Shown here in pieces: positions 20,175 to 52,931 of a stretch of DNA of 64,000 nucleotides. The position numbers and the translations under genes are program-made. Origin of the DNA: an uncultured Actinomycetes bacterium. GTDB lineage: Bacteria > Actinomycetota > Thermoleophilia > Gaiellales > JAICJC01. Numbering within the stretch: position 1 is the stretch's first letter; every line of letters starts with the position of its first letter. Under the pieces are notes generated by a model. The model did no database searches, was not told the origin of the DNA, and saw only the letters and a program-made list of their open reading frames with translations. The stretch is taken from contig CAWGSU010000004.1 in the NCBI GenBank assembly GCA_963825325.1, positions 1,152,334-1,216,333 on the forward strand, given 5' to 3'.

Positions 20175-20924
20175 TCAGGCGGAGAAGTCGGGTGTCGCGT
20201 CGTGGGCGGCGGCGGCCCGGCCCTTGGGCTCCTCCCAGTCCTCCTGCCGGCCCAGGGCGGTCAGGTCGAGGAAGGTGTACGCCGCGGCGAGGTCCTCCTG
20301 GCCGCGGCCGTGGGTGGAGTTCGTATGGAAGATGCGGTCGTCGTCGCGCAGGAAGCAGCTCACGCCCGGCATCTCGAGCGGCTGCGGGGCGGTGGTGACC
20401 CAGCGCATCGACTCGGTCTGCTCGAGCTCCGCGCGCGTGCGGAAGTTCACCTCCATCGGCGCGACGGACTCGTCGATCGTGACGTGAAAGTCGTAGTTGA
20501 AGCTCGTCCCGTACGACGAGTACCAGGGCAGCGTCCAGCCCCGGCGCCGCCGGTAGGCCTCGAGCTTCGCACGCGGCGCGCGTGACACGAGCGCGAAGGA
20601 CGTCTCGCGCGCCGCGAGGTGGGCGAGCGTCCCGGCGGCGAGCTCGTCGACGGCCCCGGTGCAGCTCGGACAGCCGTCGTCCCACTCCGGGTCGAACATG
20701 AAGTGCTGGACGATCAGCTGGCGGTGGCCGCCGAACAGGTCGATCAGGCGCGCCTCGCCGTCGGGGCCGTCGAAGACGTAGTCGGTCTGCACCGGCACCA
20801 TCGGCAGGCGGCGGCGGTCGGCGTTCGCCGCATCGGCGGCCCGCGTCAGCTCCTTCTCACGCTGGAGCAGCTGCTTGCGGGCCCTGTGCCACTCGTCTCG
20901 CGACGCGATCTCGGGCAGGCTCAT
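20175..20924 (-). CDS. DUF899 thioredoxin-like protein
   Basis: Motifs seen are [21 protein letters not shown] and [17 protein letters not shown]. Confidence 0.85.
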
Positions 20925-21069
20925 GCGTGACCTCCGGTGGCTGGATGGTGGTTACAGGAGATGGACCACGCGAGTGGCCCGAACTCATCGCCGCCACCCT
21001 CAACTCGGCGCCGGCGGCGCCGATCACGCGACCTGCGGCTCGATTGGCGGCTCGGCGGAGGTGTGTGAG

Positions 21070-22797
21070 ATGGCAGGCGTTCTTCGTGACTTGCCCATTG
21101 GCCGAAAGCTGTACGGCAGCTTCGGCGTTGTTGTCCTGCTCCTGGCGGTGGTGGCCGGCGTCTCGCTGTGGGCGCAGGCGACAATGGGCGATGCGAGCCG
21201 GTCGGCCCGCACCGCCGCGCGCAGGGCCGAGGCCGCGGCCGACGTGCGCGGCCTGGCGTCGTACATCCACGAGTCGCAGACCCGCTTCGTGCTGACGGAC
21301 GGCGAGTCGTATCGCGATCATGTTGGCGATGTGCGGGCGTTCCGCGCCGGTCTGCACACGCTTGCCGGCGAGACCGTGACGCCGTCCGACCACGCCCGCC
21401 TGCAGGCGATCCGGCGCGGGTTCGCAACCGTGTCGAGGTTCGACCGCGTCCTGATCGGCAACGTCCGGGCCGGGCGGCGCACCGCCGCAAGAGCGATCGT
21501 CCAGGGCGGCGCCGACCACGCCGCCGACGTGCTCGCGACGGCCGCCGGCGCCTACCAGACGGCTGCCGACCGTGAGCAGGCCGCAGCCGACTCCCGGTTT
21601 GCCTCGACGCGTTCGCTGGCCACGTGGCTCGTCGGCGTCGTCTCGCTGATCGCCGCGCTTCTGGCCGGCGCGTTCGCGTTCCTCGTCGGCCGGGCGATCA
21701 CGCACGGCCTGCGCCCGGTGCTCGATCGGCTGACGATGCTGCGCCGGCACTGCGTCACCGATCTGAAGGCGGGGCTCGAGGCCATGGCGACGGGCGATCT
21801 CACGGTCGGCGTCACTCCGGTCACGCCGCCGATCTGCAATCCCGGCCGTGACGAGATCGGCCAGACCGCCGAGGCGGTCAACGCGATCGCCGCGGCGACG
21901 GTGGCGTCGGTGGATGCGTACAACCGCATGCGGGCCGAGTTGTCGGGGCTCGTCGCCAGGATCTCGGCGGTGGCCGGCTCGATCAGCGAGGCGTCGCAGG
22001 ACATCGCCACGACCTCCGAGGACGCCAGCCGTGCGGTCGGCGAGATCGCGACCGCGATCGGCGCGGTCGCGGCCGGCGCCGAGCGCCAGGCGCGCATGGT
22101 CGAGCTGGCGAATGCCACCACGACCCGCACGAGCGCGGCCGCAGAGCAGGCGCGCGAGGTGGCCGAGCGGGGCGCATCGTCTGCGGGCGAGGCGTCCACG
22201 GCGATGAGCGCGGTCGACGAGTCGACCGGCGAGGTGACCGCCGCGATGGAGCAGCTCGCCGGCAAGTCGGAGCAGATCGGCGGGATCGTCGAGACCATCA
22301 CCGGCCTCGCCGACCAGACGAACCTGCTGGCGCTGAACGCGGCCATCGAGGCCGCCCGCGCGGGCGAGCAGGGCCGCGGGTTTGCGGTCGTCGCCGAGGA
22401 GGTGCGCAAGCTCGCCGAGCAGTCGCACGCCGCCGCCCGCCGGATCGCAGACCTGATCGGCGAGATCCAGGCCGACACCGTTCGCGCCGTCCGTGTGGTC
22501 GAGGAGACCTCGGGCCGCACCGAGGCGGGCACCGCGGTCGTCGGCGCAGCGCGCGCTGCCTTCCTCGAGATCGATCACGCCGTCCGCACCGTCACGGGTC
22601 AGATCCACGAGATCGCCGCTGCGACGAGCGAGGTTGCGAACGTCGCCGTGCAGACGAGTGCGGCCACCGAGCAGGTGTCGGCGTCAACCGAGGAGACCAC
22701 GGCGAGCGCGCAGGAGCTGGCCGCGAGCGCCCACGAGCTCGCCGCCACGGCGGCGACGTTGGAGCAGCTCGTGTCGGGCTTCAGGACGACCGTCTAG
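21070..22797 (+). CDS. Methyl-accepting chemotaxis protein
   Basis: It has two TM segments and a HAMP domain. The signalling hairpin reads [42 protein letters not shown] 21070 gives the [15 protein letters not shown]-terminus. Confidence 0.9.
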
Positions 22798-22982
22798 CGC
22801 GGCAGGCCGTCGCGGCGGGGGGCGCCCTCGAGGCCGGCGGCGGTGAGCCAGCCGACGAGGATCGCGATGACGCCGGCTGCGGTCACGGACATGTGCGCGG
22901 TCGCGAGGCCGGCCGTGACGATGACCACGCCGGCGCAGAGAAGTGCGACCGGAACCGCCGGCCTCGCCGTGAAATGGCGCAT
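22794..22982 (-). CDS. Possible small two-TM membrane protein (62 aa)
   Basis: Two hydrophobic stretches are present ([18 protein letters not shown] and [17 protein letters not shown]). No homology was recognised, so it could be spurious. Confidence 0.3.
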
Positions 22983-23048
22983 CCCCTGACCCTAGCGGCG
23001 GCGCGCCGCAGCGGCACTGGTGGTTTCCACCCATTCTGAGGGCGAGGG

Positions 23049-23054
23049 TATAGT
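23049..23054 (+). promoter_or_regulatory. -10-like TATAGT, 8 nt upstream of the patatin GTG (leaderless candidate)
   Basis: The sequence is gagggTATAGTgggccttcGTG, with no SD sequence. Confidence 0.3.
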
Positions 23055-23062
23055 GGGCCTTC

Positions 23063-25381
23063 GTGGCACCTGGCACGCAGGCGGTGGGACGCGACGAGCT
23101 GCGCGTCGCTCTGGTTCTGAACGGTGGGGTCAGCCTCGCCATCTGGATGAGCGGCGTCGTCACCGAGGTCGACGCGCTGCGCGCGACCGGCGCGCTCGAG
23201 CCGACGCTCGACTCCACCGCCCAGGCCTACCGCGCCCTCCGCACCCTGCTCGACCTGCGGGTCACGGTGGACGTGATCGCGGGGACGAGCGCGGGCGGCC
23301 TGAACGGCGCGCTGCTGGGCACGGCCATCGCGTGCGGGAACCGCCTGCGCGGCGTGCGCGAGCTGTGGATGGATGCCGGCAGCCTGAGGGGACTGCTGCG
23401 CACCGACCGGATGCCCGCGGTCTCGGTGCTCATGGGCGACGGCGTTGGCGATCGTCCCGGGCTGCTCGGGGCGGTGAGGGACGCGCTCAAGACCGCGTCG
23501 GAGCCCGAGGGGCCCGAGCCGCAGGCCGACGTCAGGCTGACGATGACGACGACGGGGATCCTGGGCGTGGCCGAGGACGAGCTGCAGGACAGCTATGGCG
23601 GCCGGGCCGAGCGGATCGAGCATCGCTGGCGTTTCCGCTTCGCGACCCCGCCGCCGGTCGGCCAGCCGCTGGCCGGCCGGGCGGCGATCGGCCGCGAGAG
23701 CGTCGAGGCGCTCGCCCGGGCGGCGCGGTCGAGCAGCTCGTTCCCGTTCGCGTTCGAGCCGAGCACGATCGATCCGAACGACACGGCCGTCCGCGCCGCG
23801 CTCCATACGCGCGGCGGCAAGCCGGTCTACCCCGCCGCGGGCCTGCCGGAGCACCGGAGCGTCGACGGGGGCGTCCTCGACAACTCGCCGCTCGACATCG
23901 TGCTCGACGACATCGCGCACCGGCCCGCCACCGACCTGGCCGCGCGGCGGGCGGTCGTGTTCGTCGTCCCCTACCCGGGTGTGACGGGCGACGCGGGAAC
24001 GGCCAAGTTCGATCTGCGGTCGGTGGCCGACACGACGTTCAACCTGCCGCGCGAGGTGCCCGATCTCGACAACCTGAACCAGGTCGCGACCTACCTGGCC
24101 GAGCACGGCGCGCGCATGCAGACCTACGACCGGCTCATGGCGGCCGCCGGACTCGAGGCGATCGCCACCGCGGTCGCCGGGCCGGCCGACTCGCCCACCC
24201 CCGCGCAGGCCCGACGCGTCGGGCGGCGGGTGCTCTCGCGGCTGCGCGCCGCCCGGGCCGACCTCTCGCCAGCGCCCGCTGACGATGCCCGGCGGGCCGA
24301 GCTGCGCACGCGCCAGCTCGACGTGCACCACGCGATCTCGCTCGCCGCCACCGATCCCGGTGCGGCGGCGGTCAGGGATCCGATCGTGGCCGGCCAGGCC
24401 GCCCTGACCGGGGACTCCGCGTCGTGGGAGCGCCTGGTCGCCGCGGACCGGATCCTGCATCCGGCGACGGGTCTCGGCGGCGACGACGACCAGGGTGACC
24501 TCGGGTTCACATTCATGCGGCTCTGCGCCGACGCGACGAATCCGGGCGCCTACGGTGACGAGGTCAACCCCATCGGCACCCGCGCGACGAGCCCAGGGGC
24601 GAAGCTCTACGGCCTCCAGCTGGGTCATTTCGCCGGGTTCGTGCGCCGCTCGTGGCGCGCGAACGACTGGATGTTCGGCCGCCTCGACGGCGCCGCCCGC
24701 GTCGTCGATCTGCTGCTCGATCCGCGCCTGCTGCGGCAGCAGGCGATCACGCGGGGAGGGATGCGCGCCGCGCTCGACGGCCTCGGCGCCGACCGGGAGC
24801 TGCTGCGCGATCGAGTGGCGGACGCGCTTCGCGCCGATGCCCTCCCCGACCCCTCCGGCGAGGACACCGCCGACGAGCAGGTGATCGCGGGGGCCGTCGA
24901 CGATGCGGCCCGGATCATGCCGGGCCGGGCGGCCGCGCGGCCGTCGGCCGGCGGTGAGACCCCGATCGCCGACGCCCCGTCGCGCGAGCTGCTCGTCTGG
25001 CGCCACGCCTGGCGGATCGTTCTGCAGACGGCGGTCATCCGGTCGGAGCTCAACCGGATCGGCGAGGCGATCGACCAGGACGAGCACGACGGGTTTCACC
25101 ACGACAACCCGCGCCCGGACACGGTGGTGGCAGACGCCCCCGACGCCGACTGGCTCGCCGCCTTTGGGCGCTATTACGGCCAGATCTCGGGAGCCGACGT
25201 GATCAAAAAGCTCGTCGCCGACGAGATGGCCGCCCCCAACGGCCACAGCCTCGAGGCCGACGGGATCCACCAGGCCTTCCGCATGGCCGCCGACGAGGCC
25301 GGCGGGCTGCCCTCGGTCGCGCGCCACCTCGCGTCGGTGTTCGACCACGTGTGGCGGCTCAAGGACAAGCTCGGCCTCTAA
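23063..25381 (+). CDS. Large patatin-like phospholipase (772 aa)
   Basis: The oxyanion motif is LVLNGGVSLAIW, the nucleophile elbow is AGTSAGGLNG, and the catalytic Asp motif is VDGGVLDNSPLD. A long C-terminal domain of unknown function follows. Confidence 0.85.
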   Translation: MAPGTQAVGRDELRVALVLNGGVSLAIWMSGVVTEVDALRATGALEPTLDSTAQAYRALRTLLDLRVTVDVIAGTSAGGLNGALLGTAIACGNRLRGVRELWMDAGSLRGLLRTDRMPAVSVLMGDGVGDRPGLLGAVRDALKTASEPEGPEPQADVRLTMTTTGILGVAEDELQDSYGGRAERIEHRWRFRFATPPPVGQPLAGRAAIGRESVEALARAARSSSSFPFAFEPSTIDPNDTAVRAALHTRGGKPVYPAAGLPEHRSVDGGVLDNSPLDIVLDDIAHRPATDLAARRAVVFVVPYPGVTGDAGTAKFDLRSVADTTFNLPREVPDLDNLNQVATYLAEHGARMQTYDRLMAAAGLEAIATAVAGPADSPTPAQARRVGRRVLSRLRAARADLSPAPADDARRAELRTRQLDVHHAISLAATDPGAAAVRDPIVAGQAALTGDSASWERLVAADRILHPATGLGGDDDQGDLGFTFMRLCADATNPGAYGDEVNPIGTRATSPGAKLYGLQLGHFAGFVRRSWRANDWMFGRLDGAARVVDLLLDPRLLRQQAITRGGMRAALDGLGADRELLRDRVADALRADALPDPSGEDTADEQVIAGAVDDAARIMPGRAAARPSAGGETPIADAPSRELLVWRHAWRIVLQTAVIRSELNRIGEAIDQDEHDGFHHDNPRPDTVVADAPDADWLAAFGRYYGQISGADVIKKLVADEMAAPNGHSLEADGIHQAFRMAADEAGGLPSVARHLASVFDHVWRLKDKLGL

Positions 25382-25499
25382 CCGGCGCTCCGGAAGTGCT
25401 GACGCTCACACATGGTCCGTGACCGTCGGAGCAGACGGTGGACTGACCGCACCCTAGCCTCGGTGCATGCCCTCAGCGACCGAGGAAGGAGCGCGACAC

Positions 25500-25892
25500 A
25501 TGACCCCCAAGACGACCATGACGCGGACGATCCGCCTCGCGATCGGGACGGCCGCGGCGCTTGTCCTGATGACCCAGGCCGCCCAGGCGCGGCCGAGCGG
25601 TATCAATCAACGGACGGGTCTGCCGATCGTCGGCAGCATCCACCACCCTCACATGTACGTGCAGATCCCGGTGAGCCCCGCCAACAATGTCGCAGCGGCG
25701 CACGCCGGCGACACCAACTCGAGCCGGTTCGGGTCGGAGACACCGGCGCAGACCGTCCGCCTCGCGACGAGCACGGGCGGTTTCGACTGGTATGCCGCCG
25801 CGATCGGCGCCGGCACGGTGCTCGCCGTGGCACTGATCGGCGCGGCCGCGCTGACAGCGCGCGGACGCCGACGCGTCCCACTCTCGGCCTGA
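25500..25892 (+). CDS. Secreted protein with a C-terminal sorting-signal-like tail
   Basis: GAGGAAGGAG precedes ATG 25500. The signal peptide ends ..TQAAQA/RP. The C-terminus reads LATSTGG, then a hydrophobic helix, then TARGRRR. Confidence 0.5.
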   Translation: MTPKTTMTRTIRLAIGTAAALVLMTQAAQARPSGINQRTGLPIVGSIHHPHMYVQIPVSPANNVAAAHAGDTNSSRFGSETPAQTVRLATSTGGFDWYAAAIGAGTVLAVALIGAAALTARGRRRVPLSA

Positions 25893-25906
25893 TCGATCGC
25901 GGCCGA

Positions 25907-25941
25907 CCGGGCGGGCTCGAGCCTGTTCCGAGCCCGCCCGG
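25907..25941 (+). terminator. Strong GC hairpin
   Basis: The 13-bp perfect stem is CCGGGCGGGCTCG / CGAGCCCGCCCGG with a 9-nt loop, about 15 nt after the stop. Confidence 0.6.
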
Positions 25942-26313
25942 CCGAGGCGTCGGCGGCGGCGCTGCTCGCGGGGCCCTGCGGCCGTGCAGATGGCGACGCC
26001 GGCCGGCGACGCGGCCAGTCGGATCCCAGCGGGGCTAACTCCCCCCGCCGCCCCCTGGTCCGGCATTCCGAAATCTGTTGTCCTCGTGCGCGCGGCGGGC
26101 GTCTCCGGGGTCCGGGGTTGGCGTGACCGTCGAGCCGAGCGACGCAGCGAACGACGCGAACCCGAGGCACTGCGGTGCGGCCGGGACCGTTGATGCGCAC
26201 TGCGGACACCGCGGCGGTGAACCGTGCGCGTCGCCATCCGGAGGATTGAGTGGGAGGGGAGCGCCGTGCCGAACTTCCTGGGGAGGGAGAGTGCTGCGGC
26301 GCCCCCTCCCAAC

Positions 26314-26420
26314 CTTGTGACCATAACAAGTAAGGCGGCTGTGCCTATGCCCCCGATTGGATGATCCGGCGTGTGCCTATGCACATGACATCCGCATCGG
26401 GTGAGGGGATTGCATAGGCA
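26314..26420. repeat. Cluster of short repeats: CTTGT-N7-ACAAG, GTGCCTATGC x2 (direct, 32 bp apart) and TGCCTATGCA / TGCATAGGCA (inverted)
   Basis: The copies lie at 26314-26330, 26341-26350, 26373-26383 and 26411-26420. All fall in a non-coding stretch upstream of ORF 26476. Confidence 0.6.
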
Positions 26421-26475
26421 AACGGTGGCATGTACCCTGGCGCATGCGGGCACAGAAGGGCCAGGGCAGATCCAT

Positions 26476-26724
26476 ATGGGCTACTACGTGCAGCTGCGCT
26501 ATCCGCAGGGCGGACGGTGGGTGACCGTCGCGGTGTCAGACACCCGCACCAGCGCCGCCACAGTCGCCGCCAACGCATACCGAGAGAGGAACGACCCGCA
26601 AGGCCAAGCGCCGAGTCAGGTGCGGATCGTGAGTGCCGACCAGCTCGTGCGTGAAGGCGGGGAACATGAGCTCCGCATCGCCGACGCAGAACTGATCGGC
26701 GCCGCTAGGCGCGAAGGCGTCTAG
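26476..26724 (+). CDS. Hypothetical small protein (82 aa)
   Basis: The sequence reads MGYYVQLRYPQGGRWVTVAVSD... A CCGGCCG hairpin follows the stop. No homology was recognised. Confidence 0.4.
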   Translation: MGYYVQLRYPQGGRWVTVAVSDTRTSAATVAANAYRERNDPQGQAPSQVRIVSADQLVREGGEHELRIADAELIGAARREGV

Positions 26725-27052
26725 AGCGCGACCTGTAAGGGGCCACCGGCCGCTCGGGCAAACGGCCGGTCGCGCGGAGCGGAACGCTGTTCGTCTTGTC
26801 TGCGACGCGCCCCGGTCTTATGGGCAGCGGCCGACCCCAAGAGACTGCTGATCGCCACTTCCGGGAGACCCCCTCCGGGAGGCCGACCGCTGCGGAACAG
26901 ATGTTGCACGTCCGCTGGCGGCTCGAGCCTCACCCGATGCGGGTGATTGGTAGGTCACGCCACCCGGCCTGCGCTGCGTAGCGCGCGAGCCACCTGACGG
27001 CCGCGCGGTCGTACCTCTGCCGAACAGTTATGGTCTCTCCCGTGAGGGCATC

Positions 27053-27454
27053 GTGACGACGCAGGGCCCGTTCCGGGCGGAGAAGCCGACGTTGACCACG
27101 CATCCCGTGGCCGGCGGCGACGCGCTGATCTTTCCGATCACGCCGCCGCCTCCTCAGTGGTGGTGGAGGGCGCTGCGCCATCACATGGGCGCAGATCCGA
27201 CGCTCACCAGGCCGTGGGATCAGGAGCAGGACTGCCGCATCGCGGTGGTGTGCCCCGATATGGACAAGCTGGGGGACGTGATCGACGCGATCGATGCTGC
27301 GGTCGAAGCGTCAAACCGCGACTACGAGCACGAACTGGCGCTCGAGCGCGACTCGGCCGACCACCGGAGGACGGCAGAGGCCGAGCGCGAGCGGCACCTG
27401 GCCGAGATCCAGCGTGCGCTCGACGCGCGATACGCCAAGACGCCAGACACATAA
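27053..27454 (+). CDS. Hypothetical protein (start uncertain; charged, coiled-coil-like C-terminus)
   Basis: The sequence includes ..DKLGDVIDAIDAAVEASNRDYEHELALERDSADHRRTAEAERERHLAEIQRALD. An internal ATG (MGADPTL) is an alternative start. Confidence 0.4.
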   Translation: MTTQGPFRAEKPTLTTHPVAGGDALIFPITPPPPQWWWRALRHHMGADPTLTRPWDQEQDCRIAVVCPDMDKLGDVIDAIDAAVEASNRDYEHELALERDSADHRRTAEAERERHLAEIQRALDARYAKTPDT

Positions 27455-27481
27455 GCGCAGGTGTGGCGGGCTCTTGTTGAA

Positions 27482-27570
27482 CGGAGGGGGAGGGATTCGA
27501 ACCCTCGGTACGCCTAACGACGCACAACGGTTTTCGAGACCGCCGCATTCAACCACTCTGCCACCCCTCC
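27482..27570 (-). tRNA. tRNA-Ser (anticodon CGA)
   Basis: The reverse complement folds as a class II cloverleaf. The acceptor is GGAGGGG/CCCCTCC, the D arm is GCA..TGC, and the anticodon loop is CTCGAAA. It has a long variable arm and the T arm GAGGGTTCGAATCCCTC. CCA is not encoded. Confidence 0.9.
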
Positions 27571-27610
27571 GGGAGGCCGCGCCATTCTACTCGGATACGC
27601 TTCCCGGCCC

Positions 27611-28777
27611 ATGGCCACGCCCGTCCCGAGCACGCCCGACCTGACCGACGAGCAGCGTGAGATCCAGGCGCTCGCGCGCGACTTCGCGCGGGCCGAGATC
27701 CGCCCGATCGCCGCGGAGGTCGACGAGTCCGACGTCGTCTCGCCGCTCGCGGTCGTCGCCCGCGCGGCCGAGGTCGGGCTGACGTCATACATGCTTCCCG
27801 AGGAGGTCGGCGGCGGCGGCATCGGCGACGTGCTCACGGGCTGCGTCGTGCAGGAGGAGCTGAACTGGGGCTGCGCGGCGATCGGCAACCTGATCACCTC
27901 GGCCGGCTTCTTCGCCCGGCCGCTGCTCGAGGTGGGAACGCCGGCGCAGCGCGAGCGCTGGCTGCGGCCTTTGTGCGGGGCGCGGCCGCCGCTGACGGCG
28001 CTCGCCTCGACCGAGCCCGGCGTCGGCTCCGACGCTGCCGCGATGACCACCGCCGCCGTAAGGACCGGCTCGGGCTACCGCCTGAACGGGCAGAAGACCT
28101 GGATCTCCAACGGCGGCCTGGCCGAGTTCTATGTCATCTTCGCCACCGTCGCCCCGGGCACCGGCTCGCGCGGCGTCACCGCGTTCGTGGTCGAGAAGGG
28201 CGACGCCGGCGTCTCGTTCGGCGAGCCGATGCGCAAGCACGGCCAGCGCGCGATCGTCTCGACCGAGGTGTTCCTGCACGACGTCGATCTGCCGGCCGAC
28301 CGGCTCCTCGGCGAGGAGGGCAAGGGCTTCTACAGCCTGATGCACACCTTCGACGAGTCGCGCGTGCACCTGGCCGCAGGCGCGATCGGCATCGCCCGTG
28401 CGGCGCTCGAGTACGCCACCGAGTACGCCCGCGAGCGCACGGCGTTCGGCAAGCCGATCGGCCAGCACCAGGCGGTCGGGTTCCGGCTCGCCGACATGGC
28501 GACGCGCATCGACGCCGCGCGCCTGCTCACCCACCGTGCCGCCCGGTCGATGGATGCCGGCCGCCATGTCCCCGCCGAGGCGGCGATGGCCAAGCTCTTT
28601 GCATCAGAGGCGGCGACGTGGTGCACCTGGGCGGCGGTGCAGACCCTCGGCGGCTGGGGCTATTCGCGCGAGTACCCGGTCGAGAAGTGGATGCGCGACG
28701 CAAAGCTCGAGGAGATCGAGGAGGGCACCTCGGATATCCAGCGCCTCATCATCGCGCGCAGCCTGCTCGGCCGCTGA
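27611..28777 (+). CDS. Acyl-CoA dehydrogenase
   Basis: The sequence reads [16 protein letters not shown].., with [19 protein letters not shown] and the C-terminal [16 protein letters not shown]. Confidence 0.95.
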
Positions 28778-28829
28778 CGCAGCCGGGCGGGGCGCTCAAA
28801 AAGCGGGGTCGTCCGCCGATCCTCCGGAC

Positions 28830-30401
28830 GTGAGGGTCAATCGGCGGAAGCTTCTGGTGAGCGCGGCCGGCATGGTCGCTTCGGGCAACCTGCTCGTGGC
28901 GGCGTGCAGCAGCGGGGCGACCGCCCCGCCGTACCGGTGGCGCAAGGGCGCGATGGACGGCGGCGGCTACTGCAATGCCATCGCCACCGATCCGCTCTCG
29001 CCCGGGCATGCGGCCGCCGCGGGCGACGTATGGGGCGAGTTCGCGACCAGGACGGGCGGCGCGCTCTGGTACCCGACGATGATCGGGGCGACGTCGATCG
29101 GCGACATCTACGGCCGCGCGGTCGCCTACTCGCGGCGCACCCCGGGGCTGCGCTACTACGGGATCGGCGTGCTCAAGGACGTGAACCCCAAACAGGGATA
29201 CCTCGGCGCCGTCGCGCCGGGCTCGATGACCCTGCAGACCCGAAACGACGACATCGGCTTCTCGACCTACCTGCCCGACGGCGCCGCCCACGACCTGCCG
29301 CGCGCCGCCGGGACGCTGATCGTGGTCGACGATGACGCGCACTCCGGCACCGAGTACCTGTACGTGCTCGCCCGGCAGGGCTTGCTGCGATCCGAGAACG
29401 GCGGCATGTCGTTCACGCCGCTCGGCCTGCCCGCGGTGCAGCCGCGGGCGGCATGGGCGGCGCTCTGCCTGTGCCCGGACGGGTCGCTGCTCGTCGCGAG
29501 CTACCGCACGAGCGACACGGCGGGCTCGCAGGTATGGCGGATCACGAACCCGCGTGGCCATGCCACCGTCACGCTCGTCGCAGGCGCGCCGGCGGTCGTC
29601 GAGGACATCGCGGTCGTCGACGGCGTCGTCTATGCCGCGTGCGGGACCTACGGCCTCTACCGGGTCGATCCGGCGGGCGGGTGGACGGCGCTCGCGCCGG
29701 GCACGTTCCACGGCTGCCACCTCTCGTCGGTCGCCGGCCACAGCGGAGTCCTCTGGGTCGGCAACGGCATCGGCATGACCGACCACCGCTACATCGCCCG
29801 CTCGCGCGACGCCGGCCGGAGCTTCGTCTGGACGACGACCGCGGGGCACGTCTCGAGCGCGGTGCTCGGCGCCGGCCGCAGCTGGTGGCTCGGCTCGGCG
29901 TGGCCCACGCTCGCCGGGCACGCCTATTCGGTGAGCCAGCTCGCCGTCGATCCCGCGAACGCGAACATCTGCTACTCCGCGGGTCGCAGCGGCGTCCTCG
30001 TCACCCGTGACGGCGGCGTCACCTGGCAGCCGGCGATGAACGGGCTCGACGGGTCGGAGGTGAACCAGGTGCAGGCGGGGCCGGCCTCCGGAGAGGCCTG
30101 GGCGACCGACACGGACTGGATCGGCATCCACACCACCGACCACTGGCGCACGTGTGTGCGCGTCCCCGACGTTGCCGATCTGCCGCCGATGCACGCGCCG
30201 GCGCTCGTGCGGACGCGGTCCGGCGTCCGCTACGAGGTCGCGCTCTCGAACCCGCGGCAGATGCTCGTGAACGGCCTCGACGTCGCCAGCACGTTCTTCC
30301 GCTCGGCCTGCATCACGCCCACCGATCTCGACGTCTCGAGCGACGGTCGCATCTACGTCGGCCTCAAGGGCGGCGGCGTGCTGGTCGGCCACCGCGCCTA
30401 G
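28830..30401 (+). CDS. Tat/lipoprotein-signal BNR-like beta-propeller protein
   Basis: GTG 28830 gives VRVNRRKLLVSAAGMVASGNLLVAACSS (twin-Arg plus lipobox). BNR-like motifs are SENGGMSF, SRDAGRSF and TRDGGVTW. Confidence 0.7.
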   Translation: MRVNRRKLLVSAAGMVASGNLLVAACSSGATAPPYRWRKGAMDGGGYCNAIATDPLSPGHAAAAGDVWGEFATRTGGALWYPTMIGATSIGDIYGRAVAYSRRTPGLRYYGIGVLKDVNPKQGYLGAVAPGSMTLQTRNDDIGFSTYLPDGAAHDLPRAAGTLIVVDDDAHSGTEYLYVLARQGLLRSENGGMSFTPLGLPAVQPRAAWAALCLCPDGSLLVASYRTSDTAGSQVWRITNPRGHATVTLVAGAPAVVEDIAVVDGVVYAACGTYGLYRVDPAGGWTALAPGTFHGCHLSSVAGHSGVLWVGNGIGMTDHRYIARSRDAGRSFVWTTTAGHVSSAVLGAGRSWWLGSAWPTLAGHAYSVSQLAVDPANANICYSAGRSGVLVTRDGGVTWQPAMNGLDGSEVNQVQAGPASGEAWATDTDWIGIHTTDHWRTCVRVPDVADLPPMHAPALVRTRSGVRYEVALSNPRQMLVNGLDVASTFFRSACITPTDLDVSSDGRIYVGLKGGGVLVGHRA

Positions 30402-30406
30402 CGGCG

Positions 30407-31165
30407 CTACCGGCGCTTCTCGGTAAAGGCGGTTGCCGCGTCCTGCGCGTCCGCCGTTCCCGCGAGCATGCCGTAGCCGAGCTGCTCCATGAGCACGGCC
30501 GCCTCGCGCGACGACTCCGCGGCCAGGTCGATCGTGCGCTTGGCCACCTGCAGGGCGAGCGGCGGGAGCGCCGCGAGCTCCTGCGCGATCTCGAGCGCCC
30601 GTGTGAGCGCGTCGTCCTCGGCCAGGACGCTGACGAGGCCGAGCACGTACGCCTCGCCGCCCTCGAAGCGGCGGCCGCGCAGGACGAGCTCCTTGGCGCG
30701 CGCCGGCCCGATCGCGCGGGTCAGGCGCAGGATCCCGCCGGAGCTCGGGATGATGCCGAGCCCCACCTCCGGCAGGCCGAACGTGGCCGTGGCATCGGCG
30801 ACGCGGATGTCGGTCGCGAGCGCGAGCTCGAGGCCGCCGCCCAGGCAGTAGCCCGAGATCGCGGCCACCGTCGGCTGCGGCAGCCGGGCGATGCGCTCGT
30901 AGACGCCACCGGTCGCGTCGTAGTAGGCCAGCACCGATGCGGCGTCGGCGTCGCGGAACTCGGTCACGTCGGCGCCGGCCGAGAACGCCCGCGGGCCGCC
31001 GGTGATGACGACGCAGCGGCTCTCGCGCACCGCGGCGGTCTCGATGGCCGCGCCGAGCCTCTCCTCCATCACCGCCGAGAGGGCGTTCAGCTTGTGCTCG
31101 CGCTGCAGCTCGACCACGGCGACGGCGCCGTCGCGGCGAACGCCCACTGCCTGATCATCGGCCAT
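30407..31165 (-). CDS. Enoyl-CoA hydratase/isomerase
   Basis: The N-terminal part reads VAVVELQREHKLNALS..VVITGGPRAFSAGADVTEF, followed by GYCLGGGLELALATD. Confidence 0.9.
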   Translation of the reverse strand: MADDQAVGVRRDGAVAVVELQREHKLNALSAVMEERLGAAIETAAVRESRCVVITGGPRAFSAGADVTEFRDADAASVLAYYDATGGVYERIARLPQPTVAAISGYCLGGGLELALATDIRVADATATFGLPEVGLGIIPSSGGILRLTRAIGPARAKELVLRGRRFEGGEAYVLGLVSVLAEDDALTRALEIAQELAALPPLALQVAKRTIDLAAESSREAAVLMEQLGYGMLAGTADAQDAATAFTEKRR

Positions 31166-31179
31166 CCGTGCGGTCCTCG

Positions 31180-32295
31180 CTAGTGGGGCGCGACGGCTTC
31201 TTCGTCGAGCGGCGCGAGCGCGGCGCCGGTGTCGGTGAGGACGCGCAGCGCCTCGGGGGGCAGATAGGCCTGCACCGGTGTGCCCTGCTTCCACGGGATC
31301 TCGGCGCCCGCGTTCTGCACGAGCACCTGGATCGTCGCCCCGACGGCCAGTCGCGTGATCACCTGCACGGACGGGCCCAGGTAGACCAGCCGCTCGACCA
31401 TGCCCGGGATGCGGTTCGGCCCACCGTCGGTGTGCTCCTCGAGCTGCACGCGCTCGGGCCGGATCGTGACCTTGCTCGGCCCGCGGGCGTCGGTCTTGCC
31501 CTGCAGCGCGTCGAGCTCGAAGTCGCCCACCATCAGGCGGCAGATGTTCGCGCCGCCCACGGCCTCGGCGTCCATCAGGTTCGAGGCCCCCAGGAAGTCG
31601 GCCACGAAGACCGTCTCCGGCTCCTCGTAGATCTCGCGCGGAGGCCCCACCTGCTCGACCTTGCCGTCGGCCATGACCGCGATCCGGTCGCTCATCGTGA
31701 GCGCCTCCTCCTGGTCATGCGTGACGTAGATGAAGGTGATCCCCACCTGCTGCTGCAGCGCCTTCAGCTCGACCTGGAGCGCCTTTCGCAGCTTGGCGTC
31801 GAGCGCGCCGAGCGGCTCGTCGAGCAGGAGCACGGCCGGCTTCAGCACGAGCGCGCGGGCGAGCGCCACGCGCTGCTGCTGGCCGCCGGACATCTGCCCC
31901 GGCTTGCGCTTCTCGAAGCCCGTGAGCTGCACGAGCTCGAGCGCCTCTGAGACGCGCTGGCGCAGCTCCTGCTTGCCGACTCTCTGCCTGCGCAGGCCAA
32001 ACGCGACGTTGTCGCCCACGTTCAGGTGCGGGAACAGGGCGTAGTTCTGGAACACCGTGTTCACGTTGCGCTTGTGCGGCGGCGTGTAGGCCATGTCGGC
32101 CCCGTCGAGCAGGATCTTGCCCTCGGTCGGCTGCTCGAACCCGGCGATCATCCGCAGGGTCGTCGTCTTGCCGCAGCCCGACGGCCCGAGCATCGAGAAG
32201 AACTCGCCGCTCGGCATGTCGACGTTGATCCCCGCGACGGCCGCGACGTCGCCGAAGCGCTTGACCAGGTCGACCAGGGTGACTTCGCCGGGCAT
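31180..32295 (-). CDS. ABC transporter ATPase (PotA-like)
   Basis: Motifs seen are GPSGCGKTT, LSGGQQQRVALARAL and LLLDEP. A C-terminal TOBE-like domain is present. Confidence 0.9.
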   Translation of the reverse strand: MPGEVTLVDLVKRFGDVAAVAGINVDMPSGEFFSMLGPSGCGKTTTLRMIAGFEQPTEGKILLDGADMAYTPPHKRNVNTVFQNYALFPHLNVGDNVAFGLRRQRVGKQELRQRVSEALELVQLTGFEKRKPGQMSGGQQQRVALARALVLKPAVLLLDEPLGALDAKLRKALQVELKALQQQVGITFIYVTHDQEEALTMSDRIAVMADGKVEQVGPPREIYEEPETVFVADFLGASNLMDAEAVGGANICRLMVGDFELDALQGKTDARGPSKVTIRPERVQLEEHTDGGPNRIPGMVERLVYLGPSVQVITRLAVGATIQVLVQNAGAEIPWKQGTPVQAYLPPEALRVLTDTGAALAPLDEEAVAPH

Positions 32296-32309
32296 CGGTC
32301 TCCAGCCTA

Positions 32310-33236
32310 CTAAATGTCGAATGCGGCCATGTCGCCGACCATGCCCTGGCCGGCCTGACGCTCGCCGCGTGTGAAGATGCGGTACCCCACGTAGCCGAGC
32401 ACGACCGAGGCGAGCGTGATCACGGACAGGATCGTGGCGATGGCGTTGGTGGACGGGAGCGGCGCCGCGCGGGTGGCGGAATAGATGACCATCGGCACGG
32501 TCGTCGAGCCGCCGCCATTCGAGAGCCAGTAGGAGATCACGAAGTCGTCGATCGAGATCGCGAAGCAGATCGCCGCGCCCGCCACGATCGCCGGCGTGAG
32601 CAGCGGCAGGAGCACCTTCGTGAGCGCGACCCGCGGCGACGCGCCCAGGTCGGCCGCCGCCTCCTCGTACTGTTTGCCGATCGAGAACAGGCGCCCGCGC
32701 ACGATGACGACGACGTAGGAGATCGAGAACGTGACGTGGCCGAGCACCTGGGCGAGCGTCCCGGTGTGGATGAACGTGAACAGGTTCGTGAACACGAGCA
32801 GGAGCGACACGCCCATCACGATCTCGGGCGTTACGAGCGGGAAGAGCATGATGAAGTTCGACACGCCGGAGCCCCGCCCGCGCCAGCGGGCCAGGCCGAG
32901 GGCGAGCAGGACTCCGAGCGGCGTCGCGATGATGACGTCCAGGGCCGCGAGCTTGAGGCTCTGCTGCAGCGCGCTCGAGAGGCCGGGGTCGTTGATCACC
33001 GAGCCCGGGTCGCTGATGTACCAGCGGGTCGAGAATCCTGCCCAGATCGTGCGCGACCGGCTGTCGTTGAACGAGTACTGCACCGCGATCAGCACCGGCA
33101 CGATCGCCCAGATCATGTACGCCCACGTGAACACGACCAGGAAGCGCGGCCGGCCCCAGGGGTTGGCCATCCAGCCGCGGGCGCGGCGCAGTGCCGATGG
33201 GCGCTGCGTGGGTGCGGTTGCCGTTGCGGTGGTCAT
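32310..33236 (-). CDS. ABC transporter permease (PotC-like)
   Basis: It is a polytopic protein with the EAA-type loop YEEAAADLGASPRVALTKVLLP. Confidence 0.9.
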   Translation of the reverse strand: MTTATATAPTQRPSALRRARGWMANPWGRPRFLVVFTWAYMIWAIVPVLIAVQYSFNDSRSRTIWAGFSTRWYISDPGSVINDPGLSSALQQSLKLAALDVIIATPLGVLLALGLARWRGRGSGVSNFIMLFPLVTPEIVMGVSLLLVFTNLFTFIHTGTLAQVLGHVTFSISYVVVIVRGRLFSIGKQYEEAAADLGASPRVALTKVLLPLLTPAIVAGAAICFAISIDDFVISYWLSNGGGSTTVPMVIYSATRAAPLPSTNAIATILSVITLASVVLGYVGYRIFTRGERQAGQGMVGDMAAFDI

Positions 33237-34132
33237 GCCCGCTGCTCCCTCGTCGTGCGCGCGACGGTGACCATGTAGTAGGCCATCAGCACCACCAGGA
33301 AGGCCGACAGGATCAGCGTCAGCGCAGCGCCGATGGTCGGCTGCGACGTGTAGTGGAAGTAGAGGTCGATCTGGTTTCCGAGCATCGAGGTGGTCGGCGC
33401 GCCGGAGACGATGTTCGGCGTGTAGTAGTCACCGAACATCGGCAGGGCGACGAGGACGCACCCGCCCAGGATGCCGGTCTTCGACAGCGGCAGCGTGACG
33501 TGCAGGAACGTCCGCCACGGGCTCGCGCCCAGGTCGCGGGCCGCCTCGAGCACGCTCTTGTCGATCCGATCAAGCGCGGCGTAGAGGGGCAGGATCAGGA
33601 AGGGGATGTACCCGTACACGAGCGCGAAGATCACGGTGATCGAGCGGCCGTCAAGCCAGCCGTACGGCTGCGTGATGACGTGTGACCAGATCAGGAACCG
33701 GTTCACGTAGCCGTCCGGCGCGAGCAGGTTCACCCACGCCAGCATCCGCATCAGGTAGCTGATCCAGAGCGGCAGGATCAGCAGGATCAGGAGCAGGCTC
33801 TTCGTCCGCGAGGCGTGCCGGGCGATGTAGTAGGCGACCGGGTAGCCGATCCCGATGCACATTGCGAGCGATACCGCCACGTACTCGCACGTGCGCACGG
33901 CCACGCCCCAAAGGTCGTTCCCGCTCGCGAACGGGCTCAGCCGCGAGAGCGCCTCGCTGACCCAGCCGATGTTCCAGTCGAGCGGGTTCCAGGCCGGGAT
34001 CGGCGTGAGCAGCGTCGGGTCGACCGATCCGAACGCCACCGCCGTCACGGCGTAGAACGGGATGATGAACAGGATGATGAGCCAGACGACGCCCGGAAGC
34101 GCGAATCCTTGCCACAGTCCCCGCGGGTACAT
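33233..34132 (-). CDS. ABC transporter permease (PotB-like)
   Basis: The EAA loop is LEAARDLGASPWRTFLHVTLP. It overlaps the downstream permease by 4 nt. Confidence 0.9.
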   Translation of the reverse strand: MYPRGLWQGFALPGVVWLIILFIIPFYAVTAVAFGSVDPTLLTPIPAWNPLDWNIGWVSEALSRLSPFASGNDLWGVAVRTCEYVAVSLAMCIGIGYPVAYYIARHASRTKSLLLILLILPLWISYLMRMLAWVNLLAPDGYVNRFLIWSHVITQPYGWLDGRSITVIFALVYGYIPFLILPLYAALDRIDKSVLEAARDLGASPWRTFLHVTLPLSKTGILGGCVLVALPMFGDYYTPNIVSGAPTTSMLGNQIDLYFHYTSQPTIGAALTLILSAFLVVLMAYYMVTVARTTREQRA

Positions 34133-52336: not shown

Positions 52337-52524
52337 GGCGCGCGCGAGTGTACAGCCATGATGCCGGGCGCGTCGAGTCGCGTCGCAGAAGCGGGGAGTG
52401 CTTCAAATAACCGTGGGGTACGGGGTTGCGTCCTCCCCTGGGGGCGCTCTACACCTCTGCGCACCCGAGTTTTCCACCCCCAGCCTTCGGGCCTGTTGGC
52501 ACGGAGGCGGGAGCGTCGAGACGC

Positions 52525-52920
52525 CTATCCCGTCGTAACGCCGCGTTGCCTTAGCAGGTCAAGAAGCCGTTGCTGTGTGGGCTTCTTGCACCAGAAGATG
52601 ACGGAGCGGTGATCGCCTCCGGCTGTTCCGTTCAGGATGACACCCCGCGTCATCATCGTCCTGCCGGTGGGTCGCGCGCGCGACCCCTCTAGGTTGATCT
52701 CGACTGCCGGACACAGTCGTCCGAGGAGCCGTCGCATCCACCTGTAGCGGAGGCGGACTCGGATCGAGTCTTTGTCGACGACCAACTCCGCGAGCGGGTG
52801 AGTTGCGTTCGCGCAATCCATATCCGCCCACGACCATCCTTCGAGCGTGCGCCCCGTGAGGGATACTCGCATTCCGCCGATGAACCGCTGCTCCTCCGGT
52901 GACGGTCGAGATGCGCTCAT
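52525..52920 (-). CDS. Hypothetical protein (131 aa), starting 11 nt downstream of the tRNA-Ser(GCT) 3' end
   Basis: GC is lower than in the surrounding genes. No motif was recognised. Confidence 0.4.
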   Translation of the reverse strand: MSASRPSPEEQRFIGGMRVSLTGRTLEGWSWADMDCANATHPLAELVVDKDSIRVRLRYRWMRRLLGRLCPAVEINLEGSRARPTGRTMMTRGVILNGTAGGDHRSVIFWCKKPTQQRLLDLLRQRGVTTG

Positions 52921-52931
52921 AGTCTCATTAG

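What the first reader, a model, noticed from the sequence alone, without database searches (positions are those of the whole stretch)
25382..27481. 2.1 kb low-coding islet on the 3' side of tRNA-Ser(CGA)
Only three short orphan ORFs (about 130, 82 and 133 aa) are plausible between the patatin gene and the tRNA. GC drops locally, for example around 26300-26460 and 26720-27060. About 535 bp (25942-26475) appears non-coding, which is exceptional for this window.

A tRNA 3' flank is the classic integration site for mobile DNA. However, I find no integrase, no transposase and no direct repeat of the tRNA 3' end.

The region is either a decayed island or a locus encoding RNAs and small proteins.
Basis: partly seen in the sequence, partly recalled or inferred. 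Interest (0 to 1): 0.55.

Follow-up and report, generated by a model that had tools for sequence, protein, structure and literature searches.

The report
Decayed mobile-element scar beside tRNA-Ser
The gene-poor 2.1 kb next to tRNA-Ser(CGA) is most likely the worn-down remnant of an integrated mobile element: three real small genes survive among deletion scars, which is an ordinary kind of genome feature.

Summary
The observation largely holds. Between the patatin gene and tRNA-Ser(CGA) there are only three small genes (130, 82 and 133 aa). Two stretches, 25893-26475 and 26725-27052, show no coding signal. There is a local GC minimum of 0.60 near 26300.

The ORFs are not orphans. The 82- and 133-aa proteins each have dozens of homologues under purifying selection, and the 130-aa protein has relatives in several fetched loci. 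Rfam finds no RNA family, and predicted folding is unremarkable.

The two closest relatives differ in this region. One (L001) carries different DNA between the 130-aa gene and the tRNA. Similarity to it resumes 12 nt past the tRNA 3' end.

The "non-coding" spacer is a patchwork of relics:
- 43 nt of a membrane-protein gene that is intact in that relative;
- about 90 nt of the 3' end of a small-terminase gene, stop codon included.

In other genomes that terminase gene lies upstream of the 82-aa gene family, in elements carrying excisionase-like and RepAM (DUF3631) genes. A tyrosine integrase is seen only in one related element (L027), which also carries a 130-aa homologue but no 82-aa gene.

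No integrase, att repeat or replication gene survives in the window. Verdict: a decayed integrative-element remnant retaining moron-like small genes. This is a known kind of feature and of low interest.

The parts
25500..25892 (+). 130-aa gene (the longer ORF starts at 25467). The protein has a Sec-type signal peptide (…AQAAQA/RPSG) and a C-terminal hydrophobic helix followed by RGRRR, so it is probably a secreted, membrane-anchored small protein.
   Evidence: The GC3 frame fits. Homologues lie after the patatin gene in L001 and L002, directly upstream of the 82-aa gene in L018 and L020, and downstream of the terminase gene in the integrase-bearing element L027 (46-47% identity, E 4e-19 to 1e-23). 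No Pfam, PHROG, NCBIfam or PADLOC hit. The signal peptide and anchor are read from the sequence itself.
25904..25944 (+). GC-rich hairpin after the 130-aa gene, probably its terminator.
   Evidence: Inverted repeat of 16 nt, 94% complementary. The block is conserved in L001, L002 and L018.
25985..26027 (-). Relic of the 5' end of a small membrane-protein gene that is intact in relative L001.
   Evidence: 84% identical to L001 13249-13292. L001 12960-13248, the body of that minus-strand gene, is missing here.
26045..26177 (.). Non-coding block shared with L015, where it lies upstream of the terminase-like gene. The second half is inverted relative to L015.
   Evidence: 26045-26109 matches L015 4284-4348 (85%). 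26118-26177 matches L015 4415-4356 on the opposite strand (87%).
26178..26269 (+). Relic of the last ~70 nt of a small-terminase (Terminase_4/P27-type) gene, including its stop codon (GAGGATTGA, stop at 26247-26249), plus the start of the next intergenic junction.
   Evidence: Matches L015 5379-5448 (77%) and L014 5382-5454 (73%). The L014 ORF 4680-5429 passes the Pfam Terminase_4 cut-off (28.7 against 24.7 bits). About 960 bp of the L015 gene is absent here.
26252..26311 (.). Long local hairpin (GGGAGGGGAGCGCCG … CGGCGCCCCCTCCC). No function can be assigned.
   Evidence: Read from the sequence and present in the MFE and centroid folds. It is not conserved in L014 or L015.
26301..26370 (.). 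70-nt conserved non-coding block containing the GC minimum of the islet. It is unexplained.
   Evidence: 82% identical to L018 8063-7996 on the opposite strand, in an unrelated intergenic region. An nhmmer search of all fetched loci finds no other copy.
26410..26475 (+). Promoter and leader of the 82-aa gene: -35 TTGCAT (26410-26415), a 17-nt spacer, -10 TACCCT (26433-26438) and SD GAAGGG (26455-26460). The -35 overlaps an imperfect palindrome, TGCATAGGCA.
   Evidence: Nearly invariant in 11 loci with different neighbours (alignments A1 and A5). It differs at 6-16% of positions, against 15-37% at third codon positions. Assigning it as a promoter is an inference; the E. coli-consensus scan does not call it.
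26342..26382 (+). Two extra copies of the 9-mer TGCCTATGC (26342-26350 and 26374-26382), the reverse complement of the promoter copy at 26412-26420.
   Evidence: These are the only three exact copies in the 64 kb window. Other loci have only the promoter copy.
26476..26724 (+). 82-aa gene for a small cytoplasmic protein of unknown function. It forms a self-contained promoter-gene-terminator unit.
   Evidence: 29 homologues at 70-100% identity and 128 cluster representatives. Substitutions are biased to third positions (6/2/20 against L014). AF2 pLDDT is 82, with a beta-beta-alpha-beta-alpha-alpha layout. No significant match in PDB or BFVD. There is a weak match to phrog_15891 (E 3.5e-4).
26744..26802 (+). 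Terminator-like hairpins after the 82-aa gene: CCGGCCG…CGGCCGG, then GAGCGGAACGCTGTTC followed by a T-rich tail.
   Evidence: 26741-26782 matches L014 6537-6580 (82%). The terminator scan calls 26777-26792.
26783..27052 (.). Stretch with no gene and no homologue in any fetched locus other than the same organism (L012 and L013). It includes the SD (GAGGG) of the 133-aa gene at its 3' end.
   Evidence: There is no GC3 peak above 0.84, no protein-family hit for the ORFs here, no blastn match, and folding z-scores of -0.1 and -1.9.
27053..27454 (+). 133-aa gene. The protein has an N-terminal beta-beta-alpha-beta-beta domain with an invariant GGDALxF…PxPPxWWW motif and a ~60-residue C-terminal helix. 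Function is unknown. The gene ends 26 nt before the tRNA.
   Evidence: 44 homologues at 46-99% identity. Substitutions are biased to third positions (20/13/43 against L007). AF2 pLDDT is 91. No significant fold or sequence match. The TscA hit is below cut-off (E 0.068). Elsewhere the family sits downstream of a Band_7 gene (L009, L028) or a histidine kinase gene (L007).
27481..27571 (-). tRNA-Ser(CGA). Its 3' end faces the islet.
   Evidence: ARAGORN and Rfam at 60.5 bits. Similarity to relative L001 resumes at 27469, 12 nt beyond the tRNA 3' end.

Best explanation
The islet is not a working system. It is the eroded remnant of one or more integrative, phage-related elements that once lay on the 3' side of tRNA-Ser(CGA).

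Such elements carry a terminase small subunit, an HTH_17 excisionase-like gene and a RepAM/DUF3631 replication initiator, plus small accessory genes. A tyrosine integrase is seen in one of the related elements examined here. Elements of this general type commonly insert next to tRNA genes.

In this genome the core genes (integrase, excisionase, replication, terminase) and the att repeat have been lost through deletions. What remains falls into two groups.

(i) Separately transcribed small genes that are still under selection:
- the 130-aa secreted, anchored protein;
- the 82-aa protein, with its own strongly conserved promoter, leader and terminator (a 'moron'-like unit).

The 133-aa gene also lies in the variable segment. 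However, its family is found elsewhere only in ordinary chromosomal contexts, so it may be a later arrival.

(ii) Non-coding scars:
- about 90 nt of the terminase gene's 3' end;
- a block from upstream of that gene;
- 43 nt of a neighbouring membrane-protein gene.

What is shown:
- the genes are real and conserved;
- the region differs between close relatives, with a boundary at the tRNA end;
- the spacer is homologous to terminase-flanking DNA in other genomes;
- the 82-aa and 130-aa families lie downstream of that terminase gene in elements with Xis-like and RepAM genes (an integrase is seen only in L027).

What is inferred:
- an element integrated at this tRNA;
- the order of the deletions;
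- the promoter assignment.
For: 1. **Variable content with a boundary at the tRNA.** L001 (patatin 91% identical) aligns to 22794-25984 and 27469-34000. Between those points it carries 548 bp of different DNA, against 1484 bp here. L002 diverges after 25954.
2. **The spacer consists of relics.** 26045-26177 and 26178-26269 are collinear with L015 4284-4415 and 5379-5448, so about 960 bp of L015's terminase-like gene is deleted here. The terminase stop codon is retained. 25985-26027 is the 5' end of L001's membrane-protein gene.
3. **L014 shares both flanks of the 82-aa gene with the window** (26202-26269 and 26741-82). L014 also carries a Pfam-significant Terminase_4 gene, an HTH_17 excisionase-like gene (phrog_66, E 4.5e-10) and a DUF3631 gene.
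4. **L027 has the fuller gene set.** It carries a tyrosine integrase (phrog_1, E 2e-54), DUF3631, HTH_17, a homologue 94% identical to the L014 633-aa protein, a terminase homologue, and a homologue of the window's 130-aa protein.
5. **DUF3631 is RepAM**, the replication initiator of pMEA300-type integrative elements (PMC3218068).
6. **In L015 the same segment lies about 1 kb from the 3' end of tRNA-Trp**.
7. **The three genes have lower GC3** (0.87, 0.78, 0.85) than their neighbours (0.93, 0.95).
8. **The 82-aa gene behaves as an autonomous unit.** The same ~330-bp promoter-plus-gene unit occurs in at least 9 different gene neighbourhoods, with sharp homology boundaries.
Against: - No integrase survives, not even a detectable pseudogene.
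- There is no att-like repeat of the tRNA 3' end.
- There is no replication or transfer gene in the window.
- The 130-aa gene follows the patatin gene in L001 and L002 as well, so it may be an old resident rather than part of a recent insertion.
- The 133-aa family is otherwise found in ordinary chromosomal contexts, downstream of Band_7 or a kinase, and never with the 82-aa gene or a terminase.
- Several 82-aa homologues sit in neighbourhoods with no mobile-element genes (L019, L021).
- Neither family occurs in IMG/VR, or in the cultured phage and plasmid collections.
- The integrase of L014 itself could not be seen, because the locus ends inside the DUF3631 gene.
Confidence: 0.6

Rival explanations
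1. An ordinary fast-evolving indel hot spot. Lineage-specific small genes and intergenic DNA are shuffled by illegitimate recombination and deletion. The nearby tRNA is incidental and no element ever integrated here.
For: - No integrase or att is present.
- L001 and L002 also show local deletions that have nothing to do with mobile genes: a collapsed cupin gene in L001 and an intact one in L002.
- A separate 1.8-kb indel carrying the chemoreceptor gene lies only 2.6 kb upstream.
- Many contexts of the 82-aa and 133-aa genes are plainly chromosomal.
Against: - The spacer has nucleotide homology to terminase-gene flanks.
- The 82-aa and 130-aa families co-reside with terminase, Xis-like and RepAM genes (and, in L027, an integrase).
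- The variable segment ends 12 nt from the tRNA 3' end.
- The same segment lies beside another tRNA in L015.
Confidence: 0.3
2. The non-coding stretches (25942-26475 and/or 26725-27052) encode a functional small RNA or a cis-regulatory RNA.
For: - There are strong local hairpins at 26252-26311 and 26744-26792.
- A 70-nt conserved non-coding block at 26301-26370 is shared with an unrelated locus.
- The 64-nt leader of the 82-aa gene is more conserved than synonymous sites.
Against: - Rfam at E<=10 gives only the tRNA and chance hits.
- Folding energies are not unusual (z = -0.12, -1.92, -0.97, -0.33).
- Most of the spacer is accounted for as relics of genes.
- In L018 the 130-aa and 82-aa genes are adjacent without the 464-bp spacer, so the spacer is dispensable.
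- The conserved leader is fully accounted for by a -35/-10/SD layout.
Confidence: 0.05
3. The 82-aa and 133-aa genes form a two-gene functional module, for example a toxin-antitoxin or defence pair, parked beside the tRNA.
For: - The two small genes are adjacent on the same strand.
- There is a weak TscA-antitoxin hit for the 133-aa protein (E 0.068).
Against: - The two families never co-occur in any other fetched locus (0 of 9 contexts of the 82-aa gene and 0 of 3 contexts of the 133-aa gene).
- They are separated by 328 bp containing terminator-like hairpins.
- There are no PADLOC hits.
- The TscA hit is far below the cut-off (13.8 against 27 bits) and lies in a long helix.
Confidence: 0.03

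Closest known systems
tRNA-linked genomic islands or degraded prophage remnants (integrase-mediated insertion at a tRNA 3' end followed by deletional decay)
   Same: - The islet lies immediately 3' of a tRNA.
- Its content differs between close relatives, and the boundary is within about 12 nt of the tRNA end.
- GC3 is lower than in the neighbouring genes.
- It contains fragments of a phage-type gene (terminase small subunit).
- Small accessory genes are retained.
   Different: - No integrase, no att direct repeat and no other mobility gene is left, so membership cannot be shown from the window alone.
- Part of the content (the 130-aa gene) is shared with relatives that lack the rest.
Actinomycete integrative elements of the pMEA300 type (AICEs: Int-Tyr, Xis, RepAM/DUF3631, Tra; Ghinet et al. 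2011, PMC3218068)
   Same: Related loci that share sequence with the islet carry an HTH_17 Xis-like gene and RepAM/DUF3631 (L014, L027) and a tyrosine integrase (L027).
   Different: - No FtsK/SpoIIIE Tra gene was seen in L014 or L027. Instead they carry a Terminase_4 gene and a conserved 633-aa protein with no family match.
- The window itself has none of the AICE modules.
Phage satellites of the PICI type (int, xis/alpA, pri-rep and terS, without capsid genes)
   Same: L027 shows an integrase, excisionase-like gene, replication initiator and small terminase without visible capsid, portal or large-terminase genes in the fetched 12-20 kb; L014 shows the same genes apart from the integrase. Small accessory genes lie at the end.
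   Different: - This was not tested functionally.
- The element ends were not defined and no helper phage is known.
- The window retains only about 90 nt of terS.
Prophage 'morons' (autonomous promoter-gene-terminator units carried as accessory cargo)
   Same: - The 82-aa gene has its own conserved -35/-10/SD and terminator-like hairpins.
- It appears in many different neighbourhoods as a ~330-bp unit.
- In L014 and L015 it lies downstream of a terminase gene.
- Its GC3 is lower than in the host genes.
   Different: - Many copies are in contexts with no phage genes.
- No transcription data exist.
- The family is absent from the phage databases searched.

Membership tests
tRNA-integrated island / integrative element | Site-specific recombinase (integrase) gene inside the element | tested here: not met
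   Pfam finds none in any islet ORF. tblastn with the L027 integrase against the islet gives a best E of 0.9.
tRNA-integrated island / integrative element | Direct repeat of the tRNA 3' end (attL/attR) bounding the element | tested here: not met
   The best local alignment score is 18-23, against a shuffled mean of 20 and SD of 2.2.
tRNA-integrated island / integrative element | Boundary at the tRNA 3' end, and presence/absence or content polymorphism among close relatives | tested here: met
   Similarity to L001 stops at 25984 and resumes at 27469, 12 nt past the tRNA end, with different DNA in between. L002 diverges after 25954.
tRNA-integrated island / integrative element | Sequence relationship to a bona fide element elsewhere | tested here: inconclusive
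   There are nucleotide matches to terminase-flanking DNA of L014 and L015, and the gene families are shared with the integrase-bearing L027. However, the matches are short (60-90 nt, 73-87% identity) and the ends of those elements were not defined.
AICE (pMEA300 type) | Int + replication initiator (RepAM/RepSA) + FtsK/SpoIIIE Tra (PMC3218068) | tested here: not met
   None of the three is in the window. Relatives have RepAM (L014, L027) and Int (L027), but no Tra was seen in the fetched stretch.
PICI-like phage satellite | int, regulator/xis, pri-rep and terS in a 10-15 kb island; induction and packaging by a helper phage | tested here: not met
   The window has only a ~90-nt terS relic. Induction and packaging cannot be tested with these tools.
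Prophage moron (82-aa unit) | Own promoter and terminator flanking a single ORF, located within phage-derived DNA | tested here: inconclusive
   A conserved TTGCAT-17-TAC[CTG]CT layout with an SD is present in 11 loci, and terminator-like hairpins follow the gene. It is adjacent to a terminase gene in L014 and L015 but not in L019 or L021. No transcript data exist.
Any Rfam RNA family | Covariance-model score at or above the gathering threshold | tested here: not met
   Only tRNA passes. Other matches have E>=0.003, overlap the tRNA or are eukaryotic families, and are far below the gathering score.
TscA antitoxin (PF23767) for the 133-aa protein | Pfam score at or above 27 bits; an adjacent toxin gene | tested here: not met
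   The score is 13.8 bits, E 0.068. There is no conserved partner gene across contexts.

The most novel reading that the evidence does not exclude
The intact relatives of this scar (L027 and L014: RepAM/DUF3631, HTH_17 Xis-like gene, conserved 633-aa protein and P27-type small terminase, plus a tyrosine integrase in L027; no capsid, portal, large-terminase or Tra genes seen) could represent a previously undescribed family of phage-satellite-like integrative elements in uncultured soil Actinomycetes. The 82-aa and 130-aa proteins would be its conserved accessory genes. The 82-aa protein might bind the palindrome TGCnTAnGCA that overlaps its own invariant promoter. The window would then hold a domesticated leftover of such a satellite.
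Probability: 0.2. Interest if true: 0.5.

Novelty: new member of a known kind. Interest (0 to 1): 0.25.

Why it matters
Little hangs on this region by itself. It is a small example of how tRNA flanks gather and then erode mobile DNA, leaving selected small genes behind.

It has three modest uses:
- It assigns three "hypothetical" ORFs to real, conserved, lineage-restricted families, two of them with confident structure models and no known fold relatives.
- It shows that apparently non-coding DNA in a compact high-GC genome can be explained block by block as gene relics, without invoking an RNA gene.
- It points to related loci carrying an unusual Int/Xis/RepAM/TerS gene set, which may deserve their own study as candidate satellites in an uncultured actinobacterial lineage.

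Tried and rejected
- **Rfam.** A scan at E<=10 over 25300-27700 and a gathering-threshold scan of the whole window found only tRNAs.
- **RNA folding.** Both non-coding stretches were folded on both strands, and the z-scores are unremarkable.
- **att repeats.** A search allowing mismatches and gaps found nothing above shuffled controls. The same holds for tRNA-Trp in L015.
- **Protein-family libraries.** Pfam, PHROGs, NCBIfam and PADLOC gave nothing for the three small proteins beyond sub-threshold hits: TscA E 0.068, YjdP E 0.0075 and phrog_15891 E 3.5e-4.
- **PDB profile searches** were negative.
- **Profile-profile comparison** of the 82-aa and 133-aa families shows they are unrelated.
- **Mobile-element collections.** IMG/VR, cultured phages and plasmids contain no relatives of the 82-aa or 133-aa proteins; the L014 terminase has no match in cultured phages.
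- **tblastx** of the islet against all loci was uninformative, because high GC content generates noise.
- **Gene relics at the protein level.** tblastn with all L014, L015 and L027 element proteins against the islet found only the 130-aa gene.
- **Extending L014 leftwards.** The search with its DUF3631 protein did not return the exact protein, so a 72%-identical homologue (L027) was used as a proxy.
- **Metagenome scan.** It returned only 5 short loci.
- **Minus-strand ORFs** at 26721-26933 and 26930-27184 were considered as genes and rejected: no family hits, the second overlaps the 133-aa gene, and there are no homologues.
Full report
**Source and setting.** The window comes from a ~72% GC genome of an uncultured soil Actinomycetes lineage. 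The closest genomes found through the patatin protein are two Microflora Danica MAGs, L001 (91% amino-acid identity) and L002 (87%). Loci L012 and L013 are 99.5% identical to the region and represent the same organism.

**Checking the observation.**
- tRNA-Ser(CGA) is at 27481-27571 on the minus strand, so the region lies on its 3' side.
- The patatin gene (TIGR03607 type, with DUF3376) ends at 25381.
- In a genome this GC-rich, third-codon-position GC marks real genes. By that test, three ORFs between the patatin gene and the tRNA are credible: 25500-25892 (130 aa), 26476-26724 (82 aa) and 27053-27454 (133 aa).
- 25893-26475 and 26725-27052 show no coding frame.
- The other apparent gaps in my crude gene call turned out to be coding. 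The one exception is 52337-52930, which also lies on the 3' side of a tRNA-Ser (GCT).
- GC falls to 0.60 around 26300, in the lowest 0.5% of 200-nt windows. At 26720-27060 it is 0.695, which is not low. The islet as a whole (0.695 against 0.718) is unremarkable.
- No integrase, transposase or tRNA-derived repeat is present.

**The ORFs are real genes, not orphans.**
- The 133-aa protein has 44 database homologues at 46-99% identity. The 82-aa protein has 29 at 70-100%.
- An exhaustive profile search gives 128 cluster representatives for the 82-aa family among 1.84 billion proteins.
- Substitutions against homologous loci concentrate at third codon positions: 6/2/20 for the 82-aa gene against L014 and 20/13/43 for the 133-aa gene against L007.
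- AlphaFold2 models are confident: pLDDT 91 for the 133-aa protein and 82 for the 82-aa protein.
- Neither model has a significant structural match in PDB. The 82-aa model also has none in BFVD.
- Neither protein matches a Pfam, NCBIfam or PADLOC family above threshold, and distant members of the 82-aa family share no Pfam domain.
- The two families are unrelated to each other.
- The 130-aa protein reads as a signal peptide plus a C-terminal membrane anchor. This is taken from the sequence itself.

**Comparison with relatives.**
- L001 aligns with the window up to 25984 and again from 27469, which is 12 nt beyond the tRNA 3' end. Between those points L001 has 548 bp and the window has 1484 bp.
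- The L001 DNA encodes a minus-strand small membrane protein and a collapsed remnant of a cupin gene. That cupin gene is intact in L002.
- The window keeps only 43 nt of the membrane-protein gene's 5' end, at 25985-26027.
- L002 loses similarity after 25954 and has no tRNA at that position.
- The segment next to the tRNA is therefore a site of repeated gain and loss in all three genomes.

**What the "non-coding" spacer is made of.**
- Short blocks of the spacer match other genomes.
- 26045-26177 matches L015 4284-4415. Its second half is inverted.
- 26178-26269 matches L015 5379-5448 and L014 5382-5454. That is the last ~70 nt of a gene, with its stop codon (GAGGATTGA) conserved, plus the following junction.
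- In L014 that gene is a 249-aa ORF that passes the Pfam cut-off for the P27-type terminase small subunit.
- Relative to L015, the window has lost about 960 bp, which is nearly the whole terminase gene.
- Downstream of the 82-aa gene, the hairpin at 26741-26782 matches L014 6537-6580. So 26178-26782 looks like a shortened version of L014 5382-6580.
- In L018 the 130-aa and 82-aa genes are directly adjacent without the 464-bp spacer. The spacer is therefore dispensable.

**What the related elements are.**
- L014 carries, upstream of the terminase gene, a conserved 633-aa protein with no family match, an HTH_17 excisionase-like gene (phrog_66, E 4.5e-10) and a DUF3631 gene.
- DUF3631 is RepAM, the replication initiator of pMEA300-type actinomycete integrative elements (PMC3218068).
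- L014 itself could not be extended. A locus with a 72%-identical RepAM (L027) shows the fuller set: tyrosine integrase (phrog_1, E 2e-54), RepAM, HTH_17, the same 633-aa protein (94% identical), a terminase homologue and, downstream of it, a homologue of the window's 130-aa protein (46-47% identity, E 4e-19 to 1e-23).
- In L015 the terminase-to-82-aa segment lies about 1 kb from the 3' end of tRNA-Trp, the same geometry as in the window.
- So the 130-aa and 82-aa families, and the spacer DNA, all trace to a family of integrative, phage-related elements.

**The 82-aa gene as an autonomous unit.**
- Across 11 loci with different neighbours, similarity starts sharply about 70 nt upstream of the start codon and ends at the stop codon.
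- The upstream 64 nt reads as -35 TTGCAT, a 17-nt spacer, -10 TAC[C/T/G]CT and SD GAAGGG.
- It differs at only 6-16% of positions, against 15-37% at third codon positions.
- Terminator-like hairpins follow the gene.
- This is the layout of a prophage "moron", although several copies sit in ordinary chromosomal contexts.
- The window alone has two extra upstream copies of the 9-mer TGCCTATGC, which overlaps the -35. These are the only three copies in the 64 kb. I could not determine whether they are operator sites or duplication debris.

**The 133-aa gene fits the element story least.**
- In L009 and L028 its homologues follow a Band_7 gene in the same conserved neighbourhood. In L007 its homologue follows a histidine kinase gene.
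- It never accompanies the 82-aa gene elsewhere, and its upstream 270 bp has no match in any fetched locus.
- It may be a paralogue that landed in this variable spot.

**RNA hypothesis.**
- Rfam finds only the tRNA, even at E<=10.
- Folding energies of both non-coding stretches, on both strands, are within about 2 SD of shuffled controls.
- One 70-nt block (26301-26370), which contains the GC minimum, is conserved in an unrelated intergenic region of L018 and remains unexplained.

**Verdict.**
- The best reading (confidence about 0.6) is a decayed remnant of an Int/Xis/RepAM/TerS-type integrative element at the tRNA-Ser(CGA) flank. It retains moron-like small genes among deletion scars.
- The main rival (about 0.3) is a plain indel hot spot whose position beside the tRNA is incidental.
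- A functional RNA locus (about 0.05) and a two-gene module (about 0.03) are unlikely.
- The window fails the defining tests for an island, an AICE or a satellite, because it has no integrase, att repeat, replication gene or transfer gene. It can only be called a remnant.
- This is a known kind of feature, and interest is low (0.25).
- The most novel reading still open is that the intact relatives form an undescribed satellite-like element family in uncultured Actinomycetes.

Noticed in passing
window 21019-22791: The methyl-accepting chemotaxis protein gene (ORF 20875-22797) is absent from both close relatives, L001 and L002, with sharp boundaries. This is a second lineage-specific indel, only 2.6 kb upstream of the islet. 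MCP genes also lie near 82-aa homologues in L014 and L020.
   Followed up: partly
window 52337-52930: This is the only other truly low-coding stretch in the 64 kb (maximum frame GC 0.64-0.80). It also lies on the 3' side of a tRNA-Ser, here the GCT anticodon at 52931-53021 on the minus strand. No Rfam family matches. It was not compared with relatives.
   Followed up: partly
L027 2949-10960; L014 1-6513: These are integrative elements with RepAM/DUF3631, an HTH_17 Xis-like gene, a conserved 633-aa protein with no family match (94% identical between the two loci) and a P27-type small terminase; L027 also has a tyrosine integrase (the L014 locus ends inside the DUF3631 gene). No Tra, capsid, portal or large-terminase gene was seen in the fetched DNA. 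The gene set is PICI-like, in an uncultured actinobacterial lineage.
   Followed up: partly
window 26301-26370; L018 7996-8063 (opposite strand): A 70-nt non-coding block is 82% identical between two unrelated intergenic regions. It contains the islet's GC minimum (…TTGTGACCATAACAAGTAAGG…). No other copy was found in any fetched locus, and its function is unknown.
   Followed up: partly
window 26342-26350, 26374-26382, 26412-26420: These are the only three exact copies of TGCCTATGC in the window, clustered within 80 bp around the -35 of the 82-aa gene. The promoter copy is part of an imperfect palindrome, TGCATAGGCA. Other genomes have only the promoter copy.
   Followed up: partly
L009 5118-6489; L028 5899-7224: Homologues of the 133-aa protein sit directly downstream of a Band_7 (SPFH) gene, within a conserved SufBD / LPG_synthase / ABM neighbourhood, in two different genomes. 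This is probably the family's ancestral chromosomal position.
   Followed up: no
L020 10001-10339 and 16242-16496: One contig carries two copies of the 82-aa gene family, 78% and 70% identical to the window protein, 6 kb apart in a stretch rich in small ORFs with no family match. One copy again follows a homologue of the 130-aa gene.
   Followed up: no
L001 13300-13425; L002 12963-13772: A cupin-domain gene that is intact in L002 is collapsed in L001 to a 41-codon fusion of its N- and C-terminal ends. This shows that internal deletions recur at this locus in the relatives as well.
   Followed up: partly
window 26470-26478: The start codon used by most 82-aa homologues (ATG CAC ACG…) is ATC in the window. 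A new in-frame ATG two codons downstream (26476) has replaced it, shortening the protein from about 84-87 aa to 82 aa.
   Followed up: no
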